Shown one piece after another: positions 14,708-17,439 of a stretch of DNA of 40,000 bases (position 1 is its first letter; every line of letters begins with the position of its first letter). The notes below the pieces were generated by a model. That model did not search any database. It worked only from the letters and a program-made list of their open reading frames with translations, and was not told where the DNA came from. The position numbers and the translations under genes are program-made. This DNA is from Morganella psychrotolerans (GTDB taxonomy: Bacteria > Pseudomonadota > Gammaproteobacteria > Enterobacterales > Enterobacteriaceae), in assembly GCF_965118875.1 (NCBI RefSeq), contig NZ_CBCPJD010000009.1, positions 109,688 to 149,687 of the forward strand, in the 5' to 3' direction.

Positions 14708-14749
14708 ATTTAAAACTAAAGTTGTATTTATGTCAACAACTAAAGTTGT
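14708..14749 (-). promoter_or_regulatory. pL-like promoter with two 14-bp operators
   Basis: Minus strand reads TTGACA (14736-14731), a 17-nt spacer, then TTAAAT (14713-14708). Operators are ACAAC-TAAA-GTTGT (14736-14749, abutting the -35) and AAAAC-TAAA-GTTGT (14712-14725, filling the spacer). Their centres are 24 bp apart. Confidence 0.65.
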
Positions 14750-14864: not shown

Positions 14865-14890
14865 ACAAAAAAGCCCTCGCGGGGAGGGCT
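14865..14890 (-). terminator. Rho-independent terminator of the cI-rex operon
   Basis: Stem agccctc / gagggct (14872-14878 / 14884-14890). On the minus strand it is followed by TTTTTTGTG (A-run 14865-14871 on plus). It lies 10 nt past the rexB stop. Confidence 0.8.
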
Positions 14891-14899
14891 GAGAGATGG

Positions 14900-15328
14900 C
14901 TATTTTTTGTTTGCTAAATTAATCAACTGAATTGTTAAAAGGCATAAGTGTAAAAATGACGTAGTGGATATAATCAACGCCACTGAAGGCAAAAAAACTA
15001 TATCTAAGTTTGAAATCAATAGGATGCCAATAAAAAATAGAATTCCTAATTCAACAAAAATCAGTGCATACAGAGTTATAATAGATAGCATATACCCATA
15101 TCTCTGCATTTTTGCAAAATTGTTGTTTTTTATTCCGAGCATAAATGTTAATGCAGCTATCAGAACCGCAATCAGGGTACCGGAATATGAACTCATTGTT
15201 GCGCCAAGTGCTTCTCTATGAAGAGAAAAAGAAAGTTCAGGTGCGATCCAGTTGTGTGCAAAAATGGTTATTAAGTAAGGAGTGGCAAATAGAATAATAG
15301 CCGAAAAAATTTTGTATAAAGAGTCCAT
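14900..15328 (-). CDS. rexB: RexB-like four-TM membrane protein
   Basis: 142 aa with four hydrophobic segments. Blocks LGATMSSYSGTLIAVLIAALTF and YALIFVELGILFF match my recollection of lambda RexB (144 aa). Strong SD AAGGAGG. It lies directly downstream of the rexA-like gene. Confidence 0.75.
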   Translation of the reverse strand: MDSLYKIFSAIILFATPYLITIFAHNWIAPELSFSLHREALGATMSSYSGTLIAVLIAALTFMLGIKNNNFAKMQRYGYMLSIITLYALIFVELGILFFIGILLISNLDIVFLPSVALIISTTSFLHLCLLTIQLINLANKK

Positions 15329-15358: not shown

Positions 15359-16201
15359 TTAAGAAAGTTCTTCTTTTATTTCTTTGTAACTTTCGATTAT
15401 AACAGGTTTCATGCGGATAAAGGCAGTGTATATCTCATTTGCGATTTCTGCATTAGAAGATTTTTTAGGTAAATTACACCCAACGTGTCCCTTACCATCT
15501 AGATAGTATTCGGTTAATACATCAGCGGCATTTTCTCTTGCCTTTATGTTTATTTGGTCAATAGAGTCATAGGTGCTGCTTATTATTTCCTTAGATATCC
15601 CTTTGATATCCTTTCTCATTTTTGGCTTTAATGTTATTTCAATTGAATTCAATAGTTCATCAGATGCACTGCTAACACCCAAGGTGCGAAGTAGTGTTTT
15701 TATCATGGTTTTATCGGATTCTATTCTCAGTGTTGTTCTTCCGATGAATGTCATATTGAGGGCATCAGCCTTTGTCACTCCTTTCATCAAAGGCTCGACG
15801 ATTAGGCTTTCTGATTCTGAAAGCAACTTTTTACCTTTAACGAAGTCAGGTAATTCCCTGATTTTTGGCCCCAGAAACGAAGAGGCAAAACCAATTACAC
15901 CGTCATCAATAAAAACAAACGATGGGAATCCTAGTAACTCATCGTCAGCCAAGCTGTCGCGGATATCTTTTACTGAGTTGTTTGTTTTATTAATTTTATT
16001 TATTAAATCAGAATCATTCGTTTTTGTGAATAAAAATGATTTAATATCAATGCGATGCATATAGGTGTAGTAATCTTCGCATTGAAATGAGTGGCTAGCT
16101 TTAGAAATGACTAGATCTTCAAATAGCTTGTCAAGATTGACTTTCCTCTTCGCCTTCGTTTTGTCGTCTTGCGCATAGTAAGCCCAAAAACTAACTTTCA
16201 T
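15359..16201 (-). CDS. rexA: RexA-like protein
   Basis: 280 aa counted from ATG 16201 (SD AAGGGA 5 nt upstream). Blocks FLFTKTND, SLADDELLGFPSF, FIGRTT, LTEYYLDGKGH, NAEIANE match my recollection of lambda RexA (279 aa). It is in the cI operon. Confidence 0.75.
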   Translation of the reverse strand: MKVSFWAYYAQDDKTKAKRKVNLDKLFEDLVISKASHSFQCEDYYTYMHRIDIKSFLFTKTNDSDLINKINKTNNSVKDIRDSLADDELLGFPSFVFIDDGVIGFASSFLGPKIRELPDFVKGKKLLSESESLIVEPLMKGVTKADALNMTFIGRTTLRIESDKTMIKTLLRTLGVSSASDELLNSIEITLKPKMRKDIKGISKEIISSTYDSIDQINIKARENAADVLTEYYLDGKGHVGCNLPKKSSNAEIANEIYTAFIRMKPVIIESYKEIKEELS

Positions 16202-16292
16202 AACCATCCCTTTTAAAATAGTAGAGTATTGTTTAGTATCTATTTCTCTGGCATTGTTAAGTTATCAAATTGATATTATTATTTTTTTACCA

Positions 16293-16312
16293 CACCCTAA
16301 AACGTGTCGTCA
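16293..16312 (-). repeat. Distal copy of the 20-bp direct repeat flanking orf96
   Basis: caccctaaaacgtgtcgtca is 19/20 identical to 16606-16625. On the coding strand it begins with TGA, which is the stop codon of orf96. Confidence 0.85.
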
Positions 16313-16600
16313 CTGTTCTGAAATCATGACCATAAACACTCCGGCATCAAGTGGGTCAGCATCAATAGAAAGATTTTCAGACTCCCAATACATCCCGGAA
16401 TCTTCCTCATCTGAAGCCCATTCCTCTGCGTCAGGGTGTATCTCCATTACTATTTCAGGCTTAAGTTTTTCGGCTAAATTTTTTATTTTACCATAATAAT
16501 CAAATAGATACATTTTATGGCGTTCGCCGAACTCAATTTGTAGAGGAAATAAGCGTTCCTGAATAAAGTTTCTTAAGTCATCTCTTGATTTGAAGTTCAT
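16310..16600 (-). CDS. Small strongly acidic protein between cI and rexA (96 aa)
   Basis: ATG 16600 is preceded by AGGGTGAAACC, an SD provided by the proximal repeat. By my count it has 22 Asp/Glu against 10 Lys/Arg. The C-terminal half reads DAEEWASDEEDSGMYWESENLSIDADPLDAG. Confidence 0.6.
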   Translation of the reverse strand: MNFKSRDDLRNFIQERLFPLQIEFGERHKMYLFDYYGKIKNLAEKLKPEIVMEIHPDAEEWASDEEDSGMYWESENLSIDADPLDAGVFMVMISEQ

Positions 16601-16605
16601 GGTTT

Positions 16606-16625
16606 CACCCTAAAGCGTGTCGTCA
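16606..16625 (-). repeat. Proximal copy of the 20-bp direct repeat flanking orf96
   Basis: caccctaaagcgtgtcgtca lies 5 nt after the cI stop and 5 nt before the orf96 ATG (coding-strand order). It is 313 bp from the other copy. Confidence 0.85.
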
Positions 16626-16630
16626 GGCTG

Positions 16631-17338
16631 TCAGCCGTGGAACTTATACTTGATGGACTGACTAACCAGCACCTTAGCCCGAATAGACACACCCTCAATA
16701 CTGGATTCATCAAGGTGCCATGTCTCATATCGCGGATTATCTGATATCACGGCGAGGCGCTTGTACTGCATTTGCAGCCGCTTTATATAAATCTGGTTGT
16801 CCAGCACGAAAACGTAAATCCCGTCACCATCAAAATGATCTACGGTTACATCAACGAATATCTGATCCCGTGGCTCGAACGTCTCAGCCATTGAGTCGCC
16901 ACGAACAGTTATCATCTTGATTGTTTCTGCTGGTCTGCCGCCAAAAAGCCGCTTCGCTTCCTCTGCTGAATACTCAATAGCCGTAATGGTTTCAATGAAA
17001 TCATCCTGAACCATCACACCCGGCCCCGCGCTTGCTTCAACATCGAGTATTTCGACTTTGTAAGTCTTTATAACAGCAGGAATTGTCAGTTCAGCCTTAA
17101 CTGAATAGGTATCGCCGGCCGGAAGTAACGGGTTATCACCATCGCCGTATGCCAGCCATTCTGCAGGTACAGACAGTGCCCCGGCTATCTCAATCAGCTT
17201 TGTTGATGTCTGAGCGCTTCCGGATTCAATTTTCTGGATTGCAGCCTGTGATACGCCAATAGCATCCCCAAGCTCTTTCTGAGAGAGATTAGCGTGCTTC
17301 CTGGCGAGTTTTAATCGTTGTGCAAGTGTCGTTTTCAT
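16631..17338 (-). CDS. cI: CI-type repressor (XRE HTH + S24 LexA-like autopeptidase)
   Basis: The HTH is LSQKELGDAIGVSQAAIQKIESG. The S24 catalytic Ser is in VRGDSM and the Lys in IYIKRL. A candidate Ala-Gly cleavage site is in EASAGPG. ATG 17338 is preferred over the upstream TTG at 17353. Confidence 0.88.
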   Translation of the reverse strand: MKTTLAQRLKLARKHANLSQKELGDAIGVSQAAIQKIESGSAQTSTKLIEIAGALSVPAEWLAYGDGDNPLLPAGDTYSVKAELTIPAVIKTYKVEILDVEASAGPGVMVQDDFIETITAIEYSAEEAKRLFGGRPAETIKMITVRGDSMAETFEPRDQIFVDVTVDHFDGDGIYVFVLDNQIYIKRLQMQYKRLAVISDNPRYETWHLDESSIEGVSIRAKVLVSQSIKYKFHG

Positions 17339-17344
17339 AATCGA

Positions 17345-17373
17345 AATATACAACTTCGGTTGTTTTTAGGCAA
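17345..17373 (-). promoter_or_regulatory. pRM-like promoter with operator; probably gives a leaderless cI mRNA
   Basis: Minus strand reads TTGCCT (17373-17368), a 17-nt spacer, then TATATT (17350-17345). The cI ATG is 6 nt after the -10. The perfect palindrome ACAAC-TTCG-GTTGT (17350-17363) fills the spacer. Confidence 0.55.
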
Positions 17374-17387
17374 TCGGATTTTGGTTG

Positions 17388-17416
17388 TTGATTAAAAACA
17401 ACTATAGTTTTATTAT
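17388..17416 (+). promoter_or_regulatory. pR-like promoter with operator
   Basis: TTGATT (17388-17393), a 17-nt spacer, then TATTAT (17411-17416). Operator ACAAC-TATA-GTTTT (17398-17411) sits in the spacer and -10. A GTTGT half-site (17384-17388) abuts the -35, as at pL. Confidence 0.6.
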
Positions 17417-17439
17417 GTAAAAATAAAACGGAGGTTGTT

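What the first reader, a model, noticed from the sequence alone, without database searches (positions are those of the whole stretch)
16293..16625. Acidic 96-aa gene inserted between cI and rexA, bracketed by 20-bp direct repeats
In lambda, rexA follows cI directly. Here a 291-nt ORF sits between them.

- It is flanked by the repeat TGACGACACG(C/T)TTTAGGGTG (coding strand): 16625-16606 and 16312-16293, 19/20 identical, 313 bp apart.
- The proximal copy supplies the ORF's Shine-Dalgarno (AGGGTGAAACC-ATG).
- The distal copy supplies its stop codon (TGA).

This looks like a cassette that entered by recombination at a pre-existing cI-rexA junction sequence.

The protein is strongly acidic: 22 D/E against 10 K/R by my count, with the tail DAEEWASDEEDSGMYWESENLSIDADPLDAG. 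Small acidic phage proteins are often DNA mimics or inhibitors. Here the gene would be co-transcribed with cI and rexAB in the lysogen. It could be a Rex modulator, an antitoxin-like partner, or an independent exclusion or anti-defence factor.
Basis: partly seen in the sequence, partly recalled or inferred. Interest (0 to 1): 0.7.

Follow-up and report, generated by a model that had tools for sequence, protein, structure and literature searches.

The report
Gene cassette at conserved prophage junction
A small acidic gene sits between the repressor and the Rex genes of a Morganella prophage, flanked by two copies of a short sequence that in related Proteus, Providencia and Morganella prophages marks where alternative small genes and anti-phage defence modules are swapped in and out.

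Summary
A 96-aa acidic ORF lies at 16310-16600 (-) between a cI-type repressor and rexA/rexB, and is bracketed by a 19/20 direct repeat.

The repeat is not private to this ORF. It is the core of a ~31-bp junction box, CA(A/G)TGGCC-TGACGACACGTTTTAGG-GTGTGG. The box corresponds to the last codons (WPDDTF-stop) of a lambda-type cI gene. It occurs in more than 120 viral contigs and in 21 Morganellaceae genomes, and is absent from E. coli.

Most loci carry one copy, immediately after any of about 13 repressor C-terminal types and before at least 37 different downstream gene families. These include BstA, RexAB, HigB, HipA-like and SIR2 genes.

Extra box copies delimit small cassettes: DUF3024 (the PADLOC candidate PDC-S43), mini membrane peptides, or this ORF. 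An empty site exists, with another cI, one box and a 98%-identical rexA.

The ORF is a real gene: dN/dS is 0.10, the AlphaFold2 model has pLDDT 92, and the family is tiny and largely Morganellaceae-restricted. It is not Rex-linked, because other copies sit before rhuM or bstA. Two of the three independent copies carry a nonsense codon. Its biochemical function remains unknown.

Best reading: a lysogen-expressed accessory cassette exchanged by recombination at a conserved linker in the known cI-N hotspot.

The parts
16631..17338 (-). cI-type repressor (HTH_3 + Peptidase_S24), 235 aa from the ATG at 17338, ending ...KYKFHG-TGA
   Evidence: - Pfam Peptidase_S24 E 1.5e-18 and HTH_3 E 1.1e-13; PHROG 4 transcriptional repressor.
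- The gene call in the identical contig L001 is 235 aa.
- Its own stop lies 5 nt before the box, so the box is non-coding here.
16606..16630 (-). Proximal junction box, CAGCC-TGACGACACGCTTTAGGGTG.
   Evidence: - Repeat family D5; 1 mismatch to the 17-nt core.
- Its AGGGTG lies 7 nt upstream of the ORF96 ATG.
16310..16600 (-). ORF96: 96-aa acidic soluble protein, the cassette cargo
   Evidence: - ORF list.
- dN/dS 0.10 against the L002 copy.
- Six true relatives in an exhaustive HMMER search, and 13 clusters, mostly Morganellaceae.
- AlphaFold2 pLDDT 92, pTM 0.83.
16289..16312 (-). Distal junction box, TGACGACACGTTTTAGGGTG-TGGT. Its first three bases are the ORF96 stop codon.
   Evidence: -.
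- From this box onward the sequence aligns with the single-box locus L029, through the rexA leader.
15359..16207 (-). rexA homologue
   Evidence: - Pfam RexA E 2.8e-56; PHROG 12654 E 2.3e-92.
- 98% identical to the RexA of L029, which has no cassette.
14900..15328 (-). rexB homologue
   Evidence: Pfam RexB E 8.6e-37; PHROG 14878.
14872..14890 (-). Terminator-like hairpin plus T-run just after rexB. Probable end of the cI-ORF96-rexA-rexB transcript.
   Evidence: - Consensus scan.
- No terminator-like site lies on the - strand between cI and this point.
17345..17373 (-). PRM-like promoter (TTGCCT-17-TATATT) ending 7 nt before the cI ATG
   Evidence: - Consensus scan. That it is used is an inference.
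- It overlaps the operator-like palindrome at 17350-17363.

Best explanation
**The box.** The two 20-bp repeats are copies of a conserved junction box of about 31 bp.
- The box originated as the last six codons, the stop and the first 3' bases of a lambda-type cI gene (W-P-D-D-T-F-stop).
- In lambdoid prophages of Proteus, Providencia, Morganella and Moellerella it persists as the border between whichever repressor gene is present and a hypervariable, lysogen-expressed accessory and defence slot.
- That slot is the known cI-N mosaic hotspot.

**The cassettes.** Small promoterless ORFs sit there, each closed by another box copy.
- The box gives the upstream ORF its stop (TGA, or TAG in the cI frame).
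- It gives the next ORF a U-rich stretch plus the first half of a Shine-Dalgarno sequence (TTTTAGG(A/G)G).

**This window.** It carries cI, box, ORF96, box, rexA, rexB and a terminator.

**Inferred steps.**
- Cassettes, repressor genes and downstream modules are reassorted between co-infecting or resident phages by homologous recombination within the box. Many of these phages encode RecT- or Red-type recombinases.
- ORF96 is transcribed from PRM together with cI and rexAB.

**ORF96 itself.** It is a genuine, purifying-selected small acidic protein. It acts independently of Rex.
- The most probable role, by position only, is a stand-alone lysogen-benefit factor: phage exclusion or defence, or protection against a competitor's toxin.
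- Its biochemical activity is not established.
For: **Shown**
1. The 17-nt core occurs in at least 120 IMG/VR contigs, with conserved flanks that were not part of the search pattern.
   - It occurs in 21 Morganellaceae species genomes. Four further hits lack the flanks and are chance.
   - It occurs in cultured Proteus and Providencia phages.
   - It is absent from 5,426 complete E. coli genomes.
2. In 59 of these loci the core is the coding end ...SQWPDDTF* of a repressor.
   - That repressor is 50% identical to lambda cI.
   - Lambda cI ends TGGCCTGAAGAGACGTTTGGCTGA.
   - About a dozen further repressor C-terminal types (roughly 13 classes including the lambda type) have their own stop 4-12 nt upstream of a box that is then non-coding.
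3. Box-delimited cassettes:
   - DUF3024, 113 aa, in 37 or more loci (Pfam E 2e-28; PADLOC PDC-S43 E 6e-38);
   - membrane peptides of 35-50 aa;
   - ORF96;
   - arrays with three boxes (L061, L095, L115, and L130 = Providencia phage PSTNGR2lys).
4. Empty site: L029 has another cI (22% identity), one box, then the same rexA leader and RexA (98%).
5. The closest cI (98%, L162) carries a DUF3024 cassette instead of ORF96.
6. The ORF96 cassette occurs behind three different repressors and before rexA, rhuM or bstA.
7. Free reassortment:
   - 37 clusters of first downstream gene in 114 loci;
   - the same module behind several cI classes;
   - the modules include BstA, SIR2/PDC-S25, HigB, HipA-like and NYN genes.
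8. The box is kept while synonymous sites inside the cassette are saturated (dS 1.46).
   - In lambda-type cI, synonymous codon entropy is 0.29 bit in the box against 0.78 bit in the 34 preceding codons.
9. There is no promoter- or terminator-like site on the - strand between PRM and the hairpin after rexB.

**From the literature**
- The cI-N region is a known mosaic hotspot that holds rexAB and bstA, expressed with the repressor (PMC8585504).
- Short conserved boundary sequences have been proposed to mediate module exchange (PMC3029335).
Against: - No recombination event or intermediate was observed. Breakpoints inside the box are inferred from alignments only.
- The loci are dominated by closely related Proteus prophages. 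Part of the box's invariance therefore reflects shared ancestry, and the first sample was selected for an exact core.
- In a cI-anchored sample the box is missing after 9 of 46 homologues at 60% identity or more; one further locus (L180) ends at the stop codon and cannot be scored.
- A 17-31-bp homology is short for efficient general recombination.
- That most unrelated cassette ORFs end exactly on the box's TGA is not obviously predicted by random capture.
- Expression of ORF96 is untested.
- Two of its three independent copies carry a nonsense codon, so it may be dispensable.
- No homology, fold or defence-library match supports any particular function.
Confidence: 0.7

Rival explanations
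1. The box is conserved mainly because it is a functional cis-element of the PRM operon mRNA. It would be a compact stop-plus-ribosome-binding linker, or a processing site, that every promoterless gene in this slot needs. On this view the direct repeats exist because each cassette must bring or keep one, and recombination at the box is a by-product.
For: - The box supplies stops in two of three frames, and TTTTAGG(A/G)G 4-8 nt before the ATG of ORF96 and DUF3024.
- A diverged DUF3024 + ORF96-like pair (L123) keeps only the ATTTTAG(A/G)G part.
- Synonymous positions of the box are less variable than the rest of cI.
- cI homologues without the box are followed at once by a terminator, so they have no co-transcribed slot.
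Against: - The terminal box copy is usually followed by 40-270 nt of unrelated AT-rich DNA before the next start codon, so it is not acting as an SD there.
- No stable or conserved RNA structure: z-scores range from -0.5 to +1.0.
- No Rfam match.
- This reading is not exclusive of the main explanation.
Confidence: 0.3
2. The box is the core site of a dedicated cassette-capture system, integron-like or att-like. A trans-acting site-specific recombinase would excise box-ORF circles and insert them at a resident box, producing the exact direct repeats.
For: - The repeats are precisely bounded at 15-20 nt, with cassette-specific sequence starting at the same positions for unrelated cassettes.
- Arrays hold up to three boxes, and cassette order varies: membrane peptide then DUF3024 in L130, L095 and L115, but DUF3024 then membrane peptide in L161 and L162.
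Against: - The box has no inverted-repeat or hairpin character like attC.
- No conserved recombinase gene is adjacent. The locus neighbours are cI, cro and replication genes.
- The box's origin as cI coding sequence explains its presence without a recombinase.
Confidence: 0.1
3. ORF96 is a functional partner of RexAB (modulator, antitoxin-like brake or sensor adaptor).
For: - It lies immediately upstream of rexA in the same predicted operon.
- It is acidic.
Against: - The cassette occurs without Rex, before rhuM in L002 and before bstA in L161.
- A 98%-identical RexA occurs without the cassette.
- More distant family members lie in non-phage contexts or in a prophage tail region.
Confidence: 0.05
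4. ORF96 is an orphan immunity-type protein against an interbacterial toxin (type VI or contact-dependent). It would be carried by the prophage to protect its lysogen.
For: - A 46-49%-identical homologue (P0004, Providencia rettgeri) lies at the end of a VgrG-DUF4123-Tle1-like effector island.
- The family is small, acidic, cytoplasmic and largely restricted to Morganellaceae.
Against: - Only one such context was found.
- No adjacent cognate toxin was identified, and the neighbouring ORFs match no family.
- Other homologues sit next to YjbR or ferritin genes.
- There is no match to any Pfam family at all, and so to none of its immunity-protein families.
Confidence: 0.12
5. The repeats are a target-site duplication made by transposition of the cassette.
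For: Direct repeats flank the insert exactly.
Against: - 17-20 bp is atypically long for a target-site duplication.
- The insert has no terminal inverted repeats and no transposase.
- The same sequence flanks unrelated cassettes in many phages and exists as a single copy at empty sites in a fixed genomic position.
Confidence: 0.02

Closest known systems
Short conserved boundary ('linker') sequences at module junctions of lambdoid phages (the modular theory of Susskind and Botstein; cited as refs 21-22 in PMC3029335)
   Same: - A short sequence is conserved at a gene boundary, with unrelated DNA on either side in different phages.
- Breakpoints of cI, cassette and downstream-module exchange fall inside it.
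   Different: - Here the linker is traceable to the 3' coding end of one repressor family.
- It is retained as non-coding DNA after heterologous repressors.
- It is reiterated to delimit an array of small cassettes.
- Such sequences are reported to be undetectable at most phage mosaic junctions (PMC3029335).
PeSL mobile regulatory cassettes of T4-type phages (PMC2839356, PMC4122927)
   Same: - Reiterated conserved motifs flank small ORFs of unknown function in a hyperplastic region.
- Recombination between the motifs explains insertion, deletion and replacement between relatives.
   Different: - PeSLs are an early promoter plus a stem-loop terminator, and they form detectable mini-circles.
- The box has neither a promoter nor a hairpin.
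- The box lies inside an operon of a temperate phage.
- Circles were not tested.
The cI-N accessory and defence hotspot of lambdoid prophages (rexAB of lambda; bstA of BTP1; PMC8585504)
   Same: - Same position, downstream of the repressor and presumably sharing its promoter.
- RexAB and BstA are among the modules found behind the box.
   Different: - The hotspot is known. The conserved box and the small box-delimited cassettes (ORF96, DUF3024/PDC-S43, membrane peptides) between cI and the main module are not described in the papers read here.
- No paper in the held library mentions DUF3024.
Morons of lambdoid phages (PMC3594210)
   Same: - An extra gene lies between two genes that are adjacent in a related phage.
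- It has lower G+C than cI (37.5% against 47%).
- It is likely expressed from the prophage.
   Different: - Morons are described as independent transcription units.
- No promoter or terminator of its own was found for ORF96.
Integron gene cassettes
   Same: Promoterless single-ORF cassettes in a tandem array, separated by a recurring site and expressed from an upstream promoter.
   Different: - No attC-like imperfect palindrome.
- No IntI.
- The recurring site is a 17-31-bp direct repeat of cI origin.

Membership tests
Lambda Rex exclusion system (ORF96 as a third component) | Obligatory co-occurrence with rexA and rexB | tested here: not met
   - ORF96 cassettes lie before rhuM (L002) and before bstA (L161).
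- rexAB occurs without ORF96 (L029).
Lambda Rex exclusion system (the flanking genes) | RexA and RexB family membership, directly downstream of cI in the same orientation | tested here: met
   - Pfam RexA E 2.8e-56 and RexB E 8.6e-37; matching PHROGs.
- Gene order cI-(ORF96)-rexA-rexB-terminator.
Short conserved boundary (linker) sequence | The same short sequence at a gene boundary, flanked by unrelated sequence on each side in different phages | tested here: met
   - 66 distinct upstream and 95 distinct downstream 30-mers surround the core.
- About 13 repressor C-terminal classes and 37 downstream gene clusters.
Short conserved boundary (linker) sequence | Recombination actually takes place within it | not testable with these tools
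   - Only inferred. Homology with L162 (same cI) ends in the box, and homology with L029 (same rexA) begins in it.
- Crosses or long-read detection of recombinants are needed.
Moron | Inserted between genes that are adjacent in a related phage | tested here: met
   L029 has cI, one box and rexA, with no ORF.
Moron | Own promoter and terminator (autonomous transcription unit) | tested here: not met
   - The consensus scan finds no promoter- or terminator-like site on the - strand between 16207 and 16630.
- This is a weak test based on consensus matching only.
Integron gene cassette | attC site: an imperfect inverted repeat that folds as a hairpin | tested here: not met
   - No inverted repeat at the box.
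- Folding z-scores range from -0.5 to +1.0.
Integron gene cassette | Adjacent IntI integrase and attI | tested here: not met
   - The neighbours are cI, cro and replication genes.
- The only integrase is the prophage integrase at the prophage end.
PeSL-type mobile regulatory cassette | The motif consists of a sigma-70 promoter plus a stem-loop terminator | tested here: not met
PeSL-type mobile regulatory cassette | Reiterated motif flanking small ORFs of unknown function, with insertion, deletion or replacement between relatives | tested here: met
DNA-mimic or anti-restriction proteins (Ocr/ArdA-like) | Fold or sequence similarity to a known mimic, with a surface charge array imitating DNA | tested here: inconclusive
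   - Acidic, pI 4.38, and a confident alpha/beta model.
- No significant match in PDB or BFVD Foldseek, in a PDB sequence search or in Pfam.
Known or candidate anti-phage defence proteins (PADLOC-DB) | Match to a defence-system model | tested here: not met
   - ORF96 matches no family.
- The alternative cassette DUF3024 matches PDC-S43 at E 6e-38 in the same call.
Type II toxin-antitoxin (ORF96 as antitoxin) | Conserved adjacency to a cognate toxin gene | tested here: not met
   The neighbours differ in every context.

The most novel reading that the evidence does not exclude
The box-delimited array behind cI is an active gene-capture device of Morganellaceae temperate phages.
- Box-ORF units would be excised as small circles and re-inserted at any resident box, by a phage recombinase or an unrecognised site-specific activity.
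- The prophage immunity operon would then work like a miniature integron.
- It would continually sample small defence or counter-defence genes: ORF96, DUF3024/PDC-S43 and the membrane peptides.
- ORF96 would be a new single-protein exclusion or anti-toxin factor.
Probability: 0.15. Interest if true: 0.8.

Novelty: new variant of a known kind. Interest (0 to 1): 0.5.

Why it matters
- **Phage mosaicism.** How phage mosaics arise is an old question: recombination at short conserved linkers, or random illegitimate joining followed by selection. Clear linkers are rarely seen.
  - Here one ~31-bp box of identifiable origin (the end of a lambda-type cI gene) joins about 13 repressor types, several small cassettes and at least 37 downstream modules.
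  - These phages are culturable in Proteus and Providencia, so the linker model becomes directly testable.
- **Gene discovery.** The box is a sequence anchor for harvesting lysogen-expressed defence and accessory genes in Morganellaceae. About half of the downstream families found here have no annotation.
- **Candidates for testing.** It flags three untested small-gene families as candidates for prophage-conferred phenotypes: ORF96, DUF3024/PDC-S43 and the 35-50-aa membrane peptides.
- **The ORF itself.** The result is more modest. ORF96 is a real but rare, Rex-independent accessory gene of unknown activity.

Tried and rejected
**Searches for related DNA and protein**
- Megablast of the region against INPHARED phages and all complete E. 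coli genomes: no match. tblastn of ORF96 against phages: none.
- ORF96 relatives in IMG/VR and JGI metagenome contigs: none.

**Family and fold searches for ORF96**
- Pfam, PHROGs, NCBIfam and PADLOC: nothing above noise.
- Foldseek against PDB and BFVD: best E 0.027 and 0.008, all targets uncharacterised or implausible.
- Profile search of PDB sequences: only a weak, partial eIF2-alpha match, E 0.004.

**Tests of relationships between the small proteins**
- ORF96 against DUF3024: hhalign probability 0.4%.
- DUF3024 against the YjbR proteins that neighbour distant ORF96 relatives: probability 0.1%.

**Tests of the box as an RNA element**
- Structured RNA: z about 0.
- Rfam match: none.

**Considered and dropped**
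- Chi-like site: the sequence does not fit GCTGGTGG. This rests on my own knowledge.
- Target-site duplication: dropped, see rival explanations.

**Other**
- Literature searches for DUF3024 and PDC-S43 found nothing informative.
Full report
**1. Checking the observation**

- The ORF is real: 16310..16600 on the minus strand, 291 nt, 96 aa.
- The two repeat copies (16293-16312 and 16606-16625) are 19/20 identical and 313 bp apart.
- Allowing three mismatches to the 17-nt core TGACGACACGTTTTAGG, the window holds exactly these two copies, against 0.04 expected.
- The distal copy begins with the ORF's TGA. The proximal copy ends in AGGGTG, 7 nt before the ATG.
- The protein has 22 D/E and 10 K/R, with pI 4.38.
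- Upstream lies an HTH + S24 repressor. Downstream lie RexA (Pfam E 2.8e-56) and RexB (E 8.6e-37).
- A terminator-like hairpin follows rexB, and a PRM-like promoter ends 7 nt before the cI ATG. No other promoter- or terminator-like site lies on that strand in between.
- Palindromes ACAACT-N3-GTTGT occur twice left of the rexB terminator and three times between cI and the cro-like gene. The whole block therefore lies inside a lambda-style immunity region.
- The host is Morganella psychrotolerans.

**2. The repeat is a widespread junction box, not a private feature of this ORF**

- Sequence outside the search pattern is also conserved. CA(A/G)TGGCC precedes the core in 35 of 66 distinct upstream contexts, and GTGTGG follows it in 51 of 95 distinct downstream contexts.
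- Among one genome per species of 185,579 species there are 25 exact hits.
  - Twenty-one are in Proteus, Morganella, Providencia or Moellerella, and all of these have the flanks.
  - The four others lack the flanks and are chance.
- The 31-mer occurs in cultured Proteus and Providencia phages, where it is annotated only as the end of the repressor gene.
- It is absent from 5,426 complete E. coli genomes.

**3. Origin of the box**

- In 59 of the loci the core is coding. It is the end of a repressor...GKVIKSQWPDDTF-stop.
- That repressor is 50% identical to lambda cI over its length. Lambda cI ends ...GKVIASQWPEETFG.
- Lambda's DNA reads cagTGGCCTGAAGAGACGTTTggcTGA, against caaTGGCCTGACGACACGTTTTAG here.
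- About a dozen further repressor C-terminal types, including the window's ...KYKFHG type, have their own stop codon 4-12 nt upstream of the box, which is then non-coding. Counting the lambda type, resolves about 13 classes.
- In a sample anchored on the window's repressor protein, and so blind to the box, the box or a near copy follows the stop in 36 of 46 homologues at 60% identity or more.
  - Nine that lack it run straight into other sequence; in at least L197, L203 and L206 this is a hairpin-plus-T-run terminator. One further locus (L180) ends at the stop codon and cannot be scored.
  - Homologues at 53% identity or less lack it.
- In a sample anchored on the lambda-type repressor (48 distinct 3' ends), synonymous codon entropy averages 0.29 bit over the five degenerate codons of the box. 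It averages 0.78 bit over the 34 codons before it. For example, Pro is CCT in 46 of 46.
- These sequences are related to one another. This is therefore suggestive, not proof, of nucleotide-level constraint or homogenisation.

**4. Box copies delimit alternative cassettes**

Scanning the loci for further copies gives a set of spacings, each with one small ORF.

- **363 bp.** A 113-aa DUF3024 protein, in 37 or more loci. Pfam E is 2e-28. It is full-length to the PADLOC phage-defence candidate PDC-S43, E 6e-38.
- **114-272 bp.** Hydrophobic peptides of 30-45 aa.
- **313 bp.** ORF96.

Most of these ORFs stop on the TGA of the next box. A 50-54-aa peptide instead stops in the cI frame (...RPDDTF-stop). 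The next ORF starts 4-8 nt after the box's TTTTAGG(A/G)G.

Arrays with three boxes exist in L061, L095 and L115. They also exist in the cultured Providencia phage PSTNGR2lys: cI, box, orf50, box, DUF3024, box. Cassette order is not fixed. The membrane peptide precedes DUF3024 in those loci, but DUF3024 precedes the peptide in L161 and L162.

**5. The predicted empty site, and reassortment**

- L029 (= L242) carries a different repressor (22% identity), one box, and then the window's rexA leader almost base for base, with a 98%-identical RexA.
- The repressor most like the window's (98%, L162) is followed by a DUF3024 cassette rather than ORF96.
- The first gene after the last box falls into 37 families in 114 loci. 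These include:
  - BstA (E 1e-119);
  - a SIR2 protein (PDC-S25);
  - M78/CapP-like peptidases;
  - an NYN protein;
  - HigB;
  - two HipA-like kinases;
  - a ResIII helicase;
  - RhuM;
  - RexA;
  - about as many families with no match.
- The same module occurs behind several repressor classes, and the DUF3024 cassette occurs behind at least five.
- This is the cI-N hotspot already noted in the literature as mosaic and as the home of rexAB and bstA, expressed with the repressor (PMC8585504).

**6. ORF96 itself**

- A word-indexed search of 5.8 billion proteins found only itself and one 71-aa relative.
- An exhaustive HMMER search of 1.84 billion representatives found six true relatives at 30-77% identity.
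- A profile search found 13 clusters. The named ones are mostly Providencia, Morganella and Moellerella, several clusters are unnamed, and one sits on an 823-nt contig labelled Burkholderia.
- The close copies are all box-flanked cassettes:
  - the window (= L001), intact;
  - L002, behind an unrelated repressor and before rhuM, with TGG changed to TAG at codon 72;
  - L161, another M. psychrotolerans prophage arranged cI, box, DUF3024, degenerate box, membrane peptide, box, ORF96, box, bstA, with TAT changed to TAA at codon 36.
- dN/dS between the window and L002 is 0.10, with dS 1.46. It is the same after the L002 stop codon.
- The gene has therefore been under purifying selection, and the nonsense changes are recent.
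- More distant members lie:
  - after a DUF3024 gene, with degenerate boxes (L123);
  - at the end of a VgrG-DUF4123-Tle1-like island in P. rettgeri;
  - next to YjbR in a prophage tail region and in the chromosome;
  - next to ferritin.
- AlphaFold2 on the seven-sequence alignment gives a confident compact alpha/beta model (pLDDT 92, pTM 0.83).
- Foldseek against PDB and BFVD gives nothing significant. Pfam, NCBIfam, PADLOC and PDB sequence profiles give nothing either.
- ORF96 is not detectably related to DUF3024.

**7. What it most likely is and how it works**

*Shown.* ORF96 is one of several alternative small cassettes that occupy a box-delimited slot between the repressor gene and a hypervariable defence or accessory module. 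The box is derived from the end of a lambda-type cI gene. Empty, single-cassette and double-cassette states all exist. The three kinds of module reassort freely, with breakpoints in the box.

*Inferred.*
- Exchange occurs by homologous recombination at the box. These phages carry RecT/YqaJ or related functions, as in L002.
- ORF96 is read from the PRM transcript, using the box's AGGGTG as its ribosome-binding site.
- Its role is independent of Rex.
- By position, among rexAB, bstA and PDC-S43, the most probable role is a lysogen-benefit function such as exclusion of other phages. Protection against a competitor's toxin is a weaker alternative, suggested by one T6SS-island homologue.
- The two nonsense alleles warn that it is often dispensable.

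**8. Rivals**

- A purely regulatory reading of the box (a stop + SD linker) is compatible with several facts. It does not explain the terminal copies, which are followed by long unrelated leaders. No RNA structure or Rfam family is involved.
- An integron-like site-specific system would explain the exact repeat boundaries. It lacks an attC-type structure and a recombinase.
- Target-site duplication and a Rex-partner role are disfavoured by the comparative data.

**9. Comparison with what is known, and novelty**

- The hotspot, RexAB and BstA are known.
- Short conserved boundary sequences have been proposed for lambdoid phages but are said to be undetectable at most junctions (PMC3029335).
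- The closest functional analogue is the PeSL system of T4-type phages, where reiterated promoter-terminator motifs flank ORFs of unknown function and mediate shuffling (PMC2839356).
- This case differs in three ways: the nature and origin of the motif, its operon-internal position, and the phage type.
- I rate it a new variant of a known kind.
Its functional guesses are unsupported or untestable here.

**10. Limits**

- The viral-contig sample is rich in near-identical Proteus mirabilis prophages.
- The first locus set was selected for an exact core.
- Promoter and terminator calls are consensus matches only.
- No expression, recombination or phenotype data exist.
- Two fold libraries were unavailable.

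Noticed in passing
window 14712-14749 and 17350-17438: Palindromes ACAACT-N3-GTTGT occur twice just left of the rexB terminator and three times between cI and the cro-like gene. They look like OL and OR operator sets bracketing the immunity region.
   Followed up: partly
window 17336-17373 (-): The PRM-like -10 hexamer ends 7 nt before the cI ATG (17338). The cI mRNA may therefore be leaderless, as in lambda (inference).
   Followed up: no
L130 2368-2520; L061, L095, L115, L034, L030; L161 3128-3260; L162 3585-3695: A set of 30-50-aa single-helix hydrophobic peptides (MK(R/K)LL...) occupy box-delimited cassettes next to cI, alone or beside DUF3024. They are unannotated and match no family.
   Followed up: partly
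L130 2529-2870 and at least 37 IMG/VR loci (363-bp box spacing): The commonest cassette encodes a DUF3024 protein that matches the PADLOC defence candidate PDC-S43 over its full length (E 6e-38). No paper in the held library mentions DUF3024.
   Followed up: partly
L002 10214-10216; L161 3345-3347: Two of the three independent ORF96 cassette copies carry a single nonsense codon (TGG to TAG at codon 72; TAT to TAA at codon 36). Purifying selection is nevertheless strong (dN/dS 0.10).
   Followed up: partly
L197, L203, L206 (just after the cI stop): Repressor homologues that lack the box are followed immediately by a GC hairpin plus T-run. That means no co-transcribed accessory slot.
   Followed up: no
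L124 1-6357 (Providencia rettgeri): An ORF96 relative (P0004, 118 aa) closes a VgrG-DUF4123-Tle1-like type VI effector island, after three unannotated small ORFs.
   Followed up: partly
L128 4931-5765; L158 6440-7291; L160 45-896: Distant ORF96 relatives (28-30% identity) repeatedly lie about 200 nt downstream of a YjbR-family gene. One of these is inside a prophage tail-gene region.
   Followed up: partly
loci behind the box, e.g. L116 1010-2077, L090 5267-6196, L016 3762-4319, L011 8675-9064: About half of the 37 gene families found immediately after the box have no Pfam, NCBIfam or PADLOC match. They are candidates for new prophage-encoded defence functions.
   Followed up: no
MZ614453.1 28087-28117: A record named 'Salmonella phage MS2 LVA' carries a perfect 31-nt box. 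This is unexpected for a non-Morganellaceae host label. It was not examined further.
   Followed up: no
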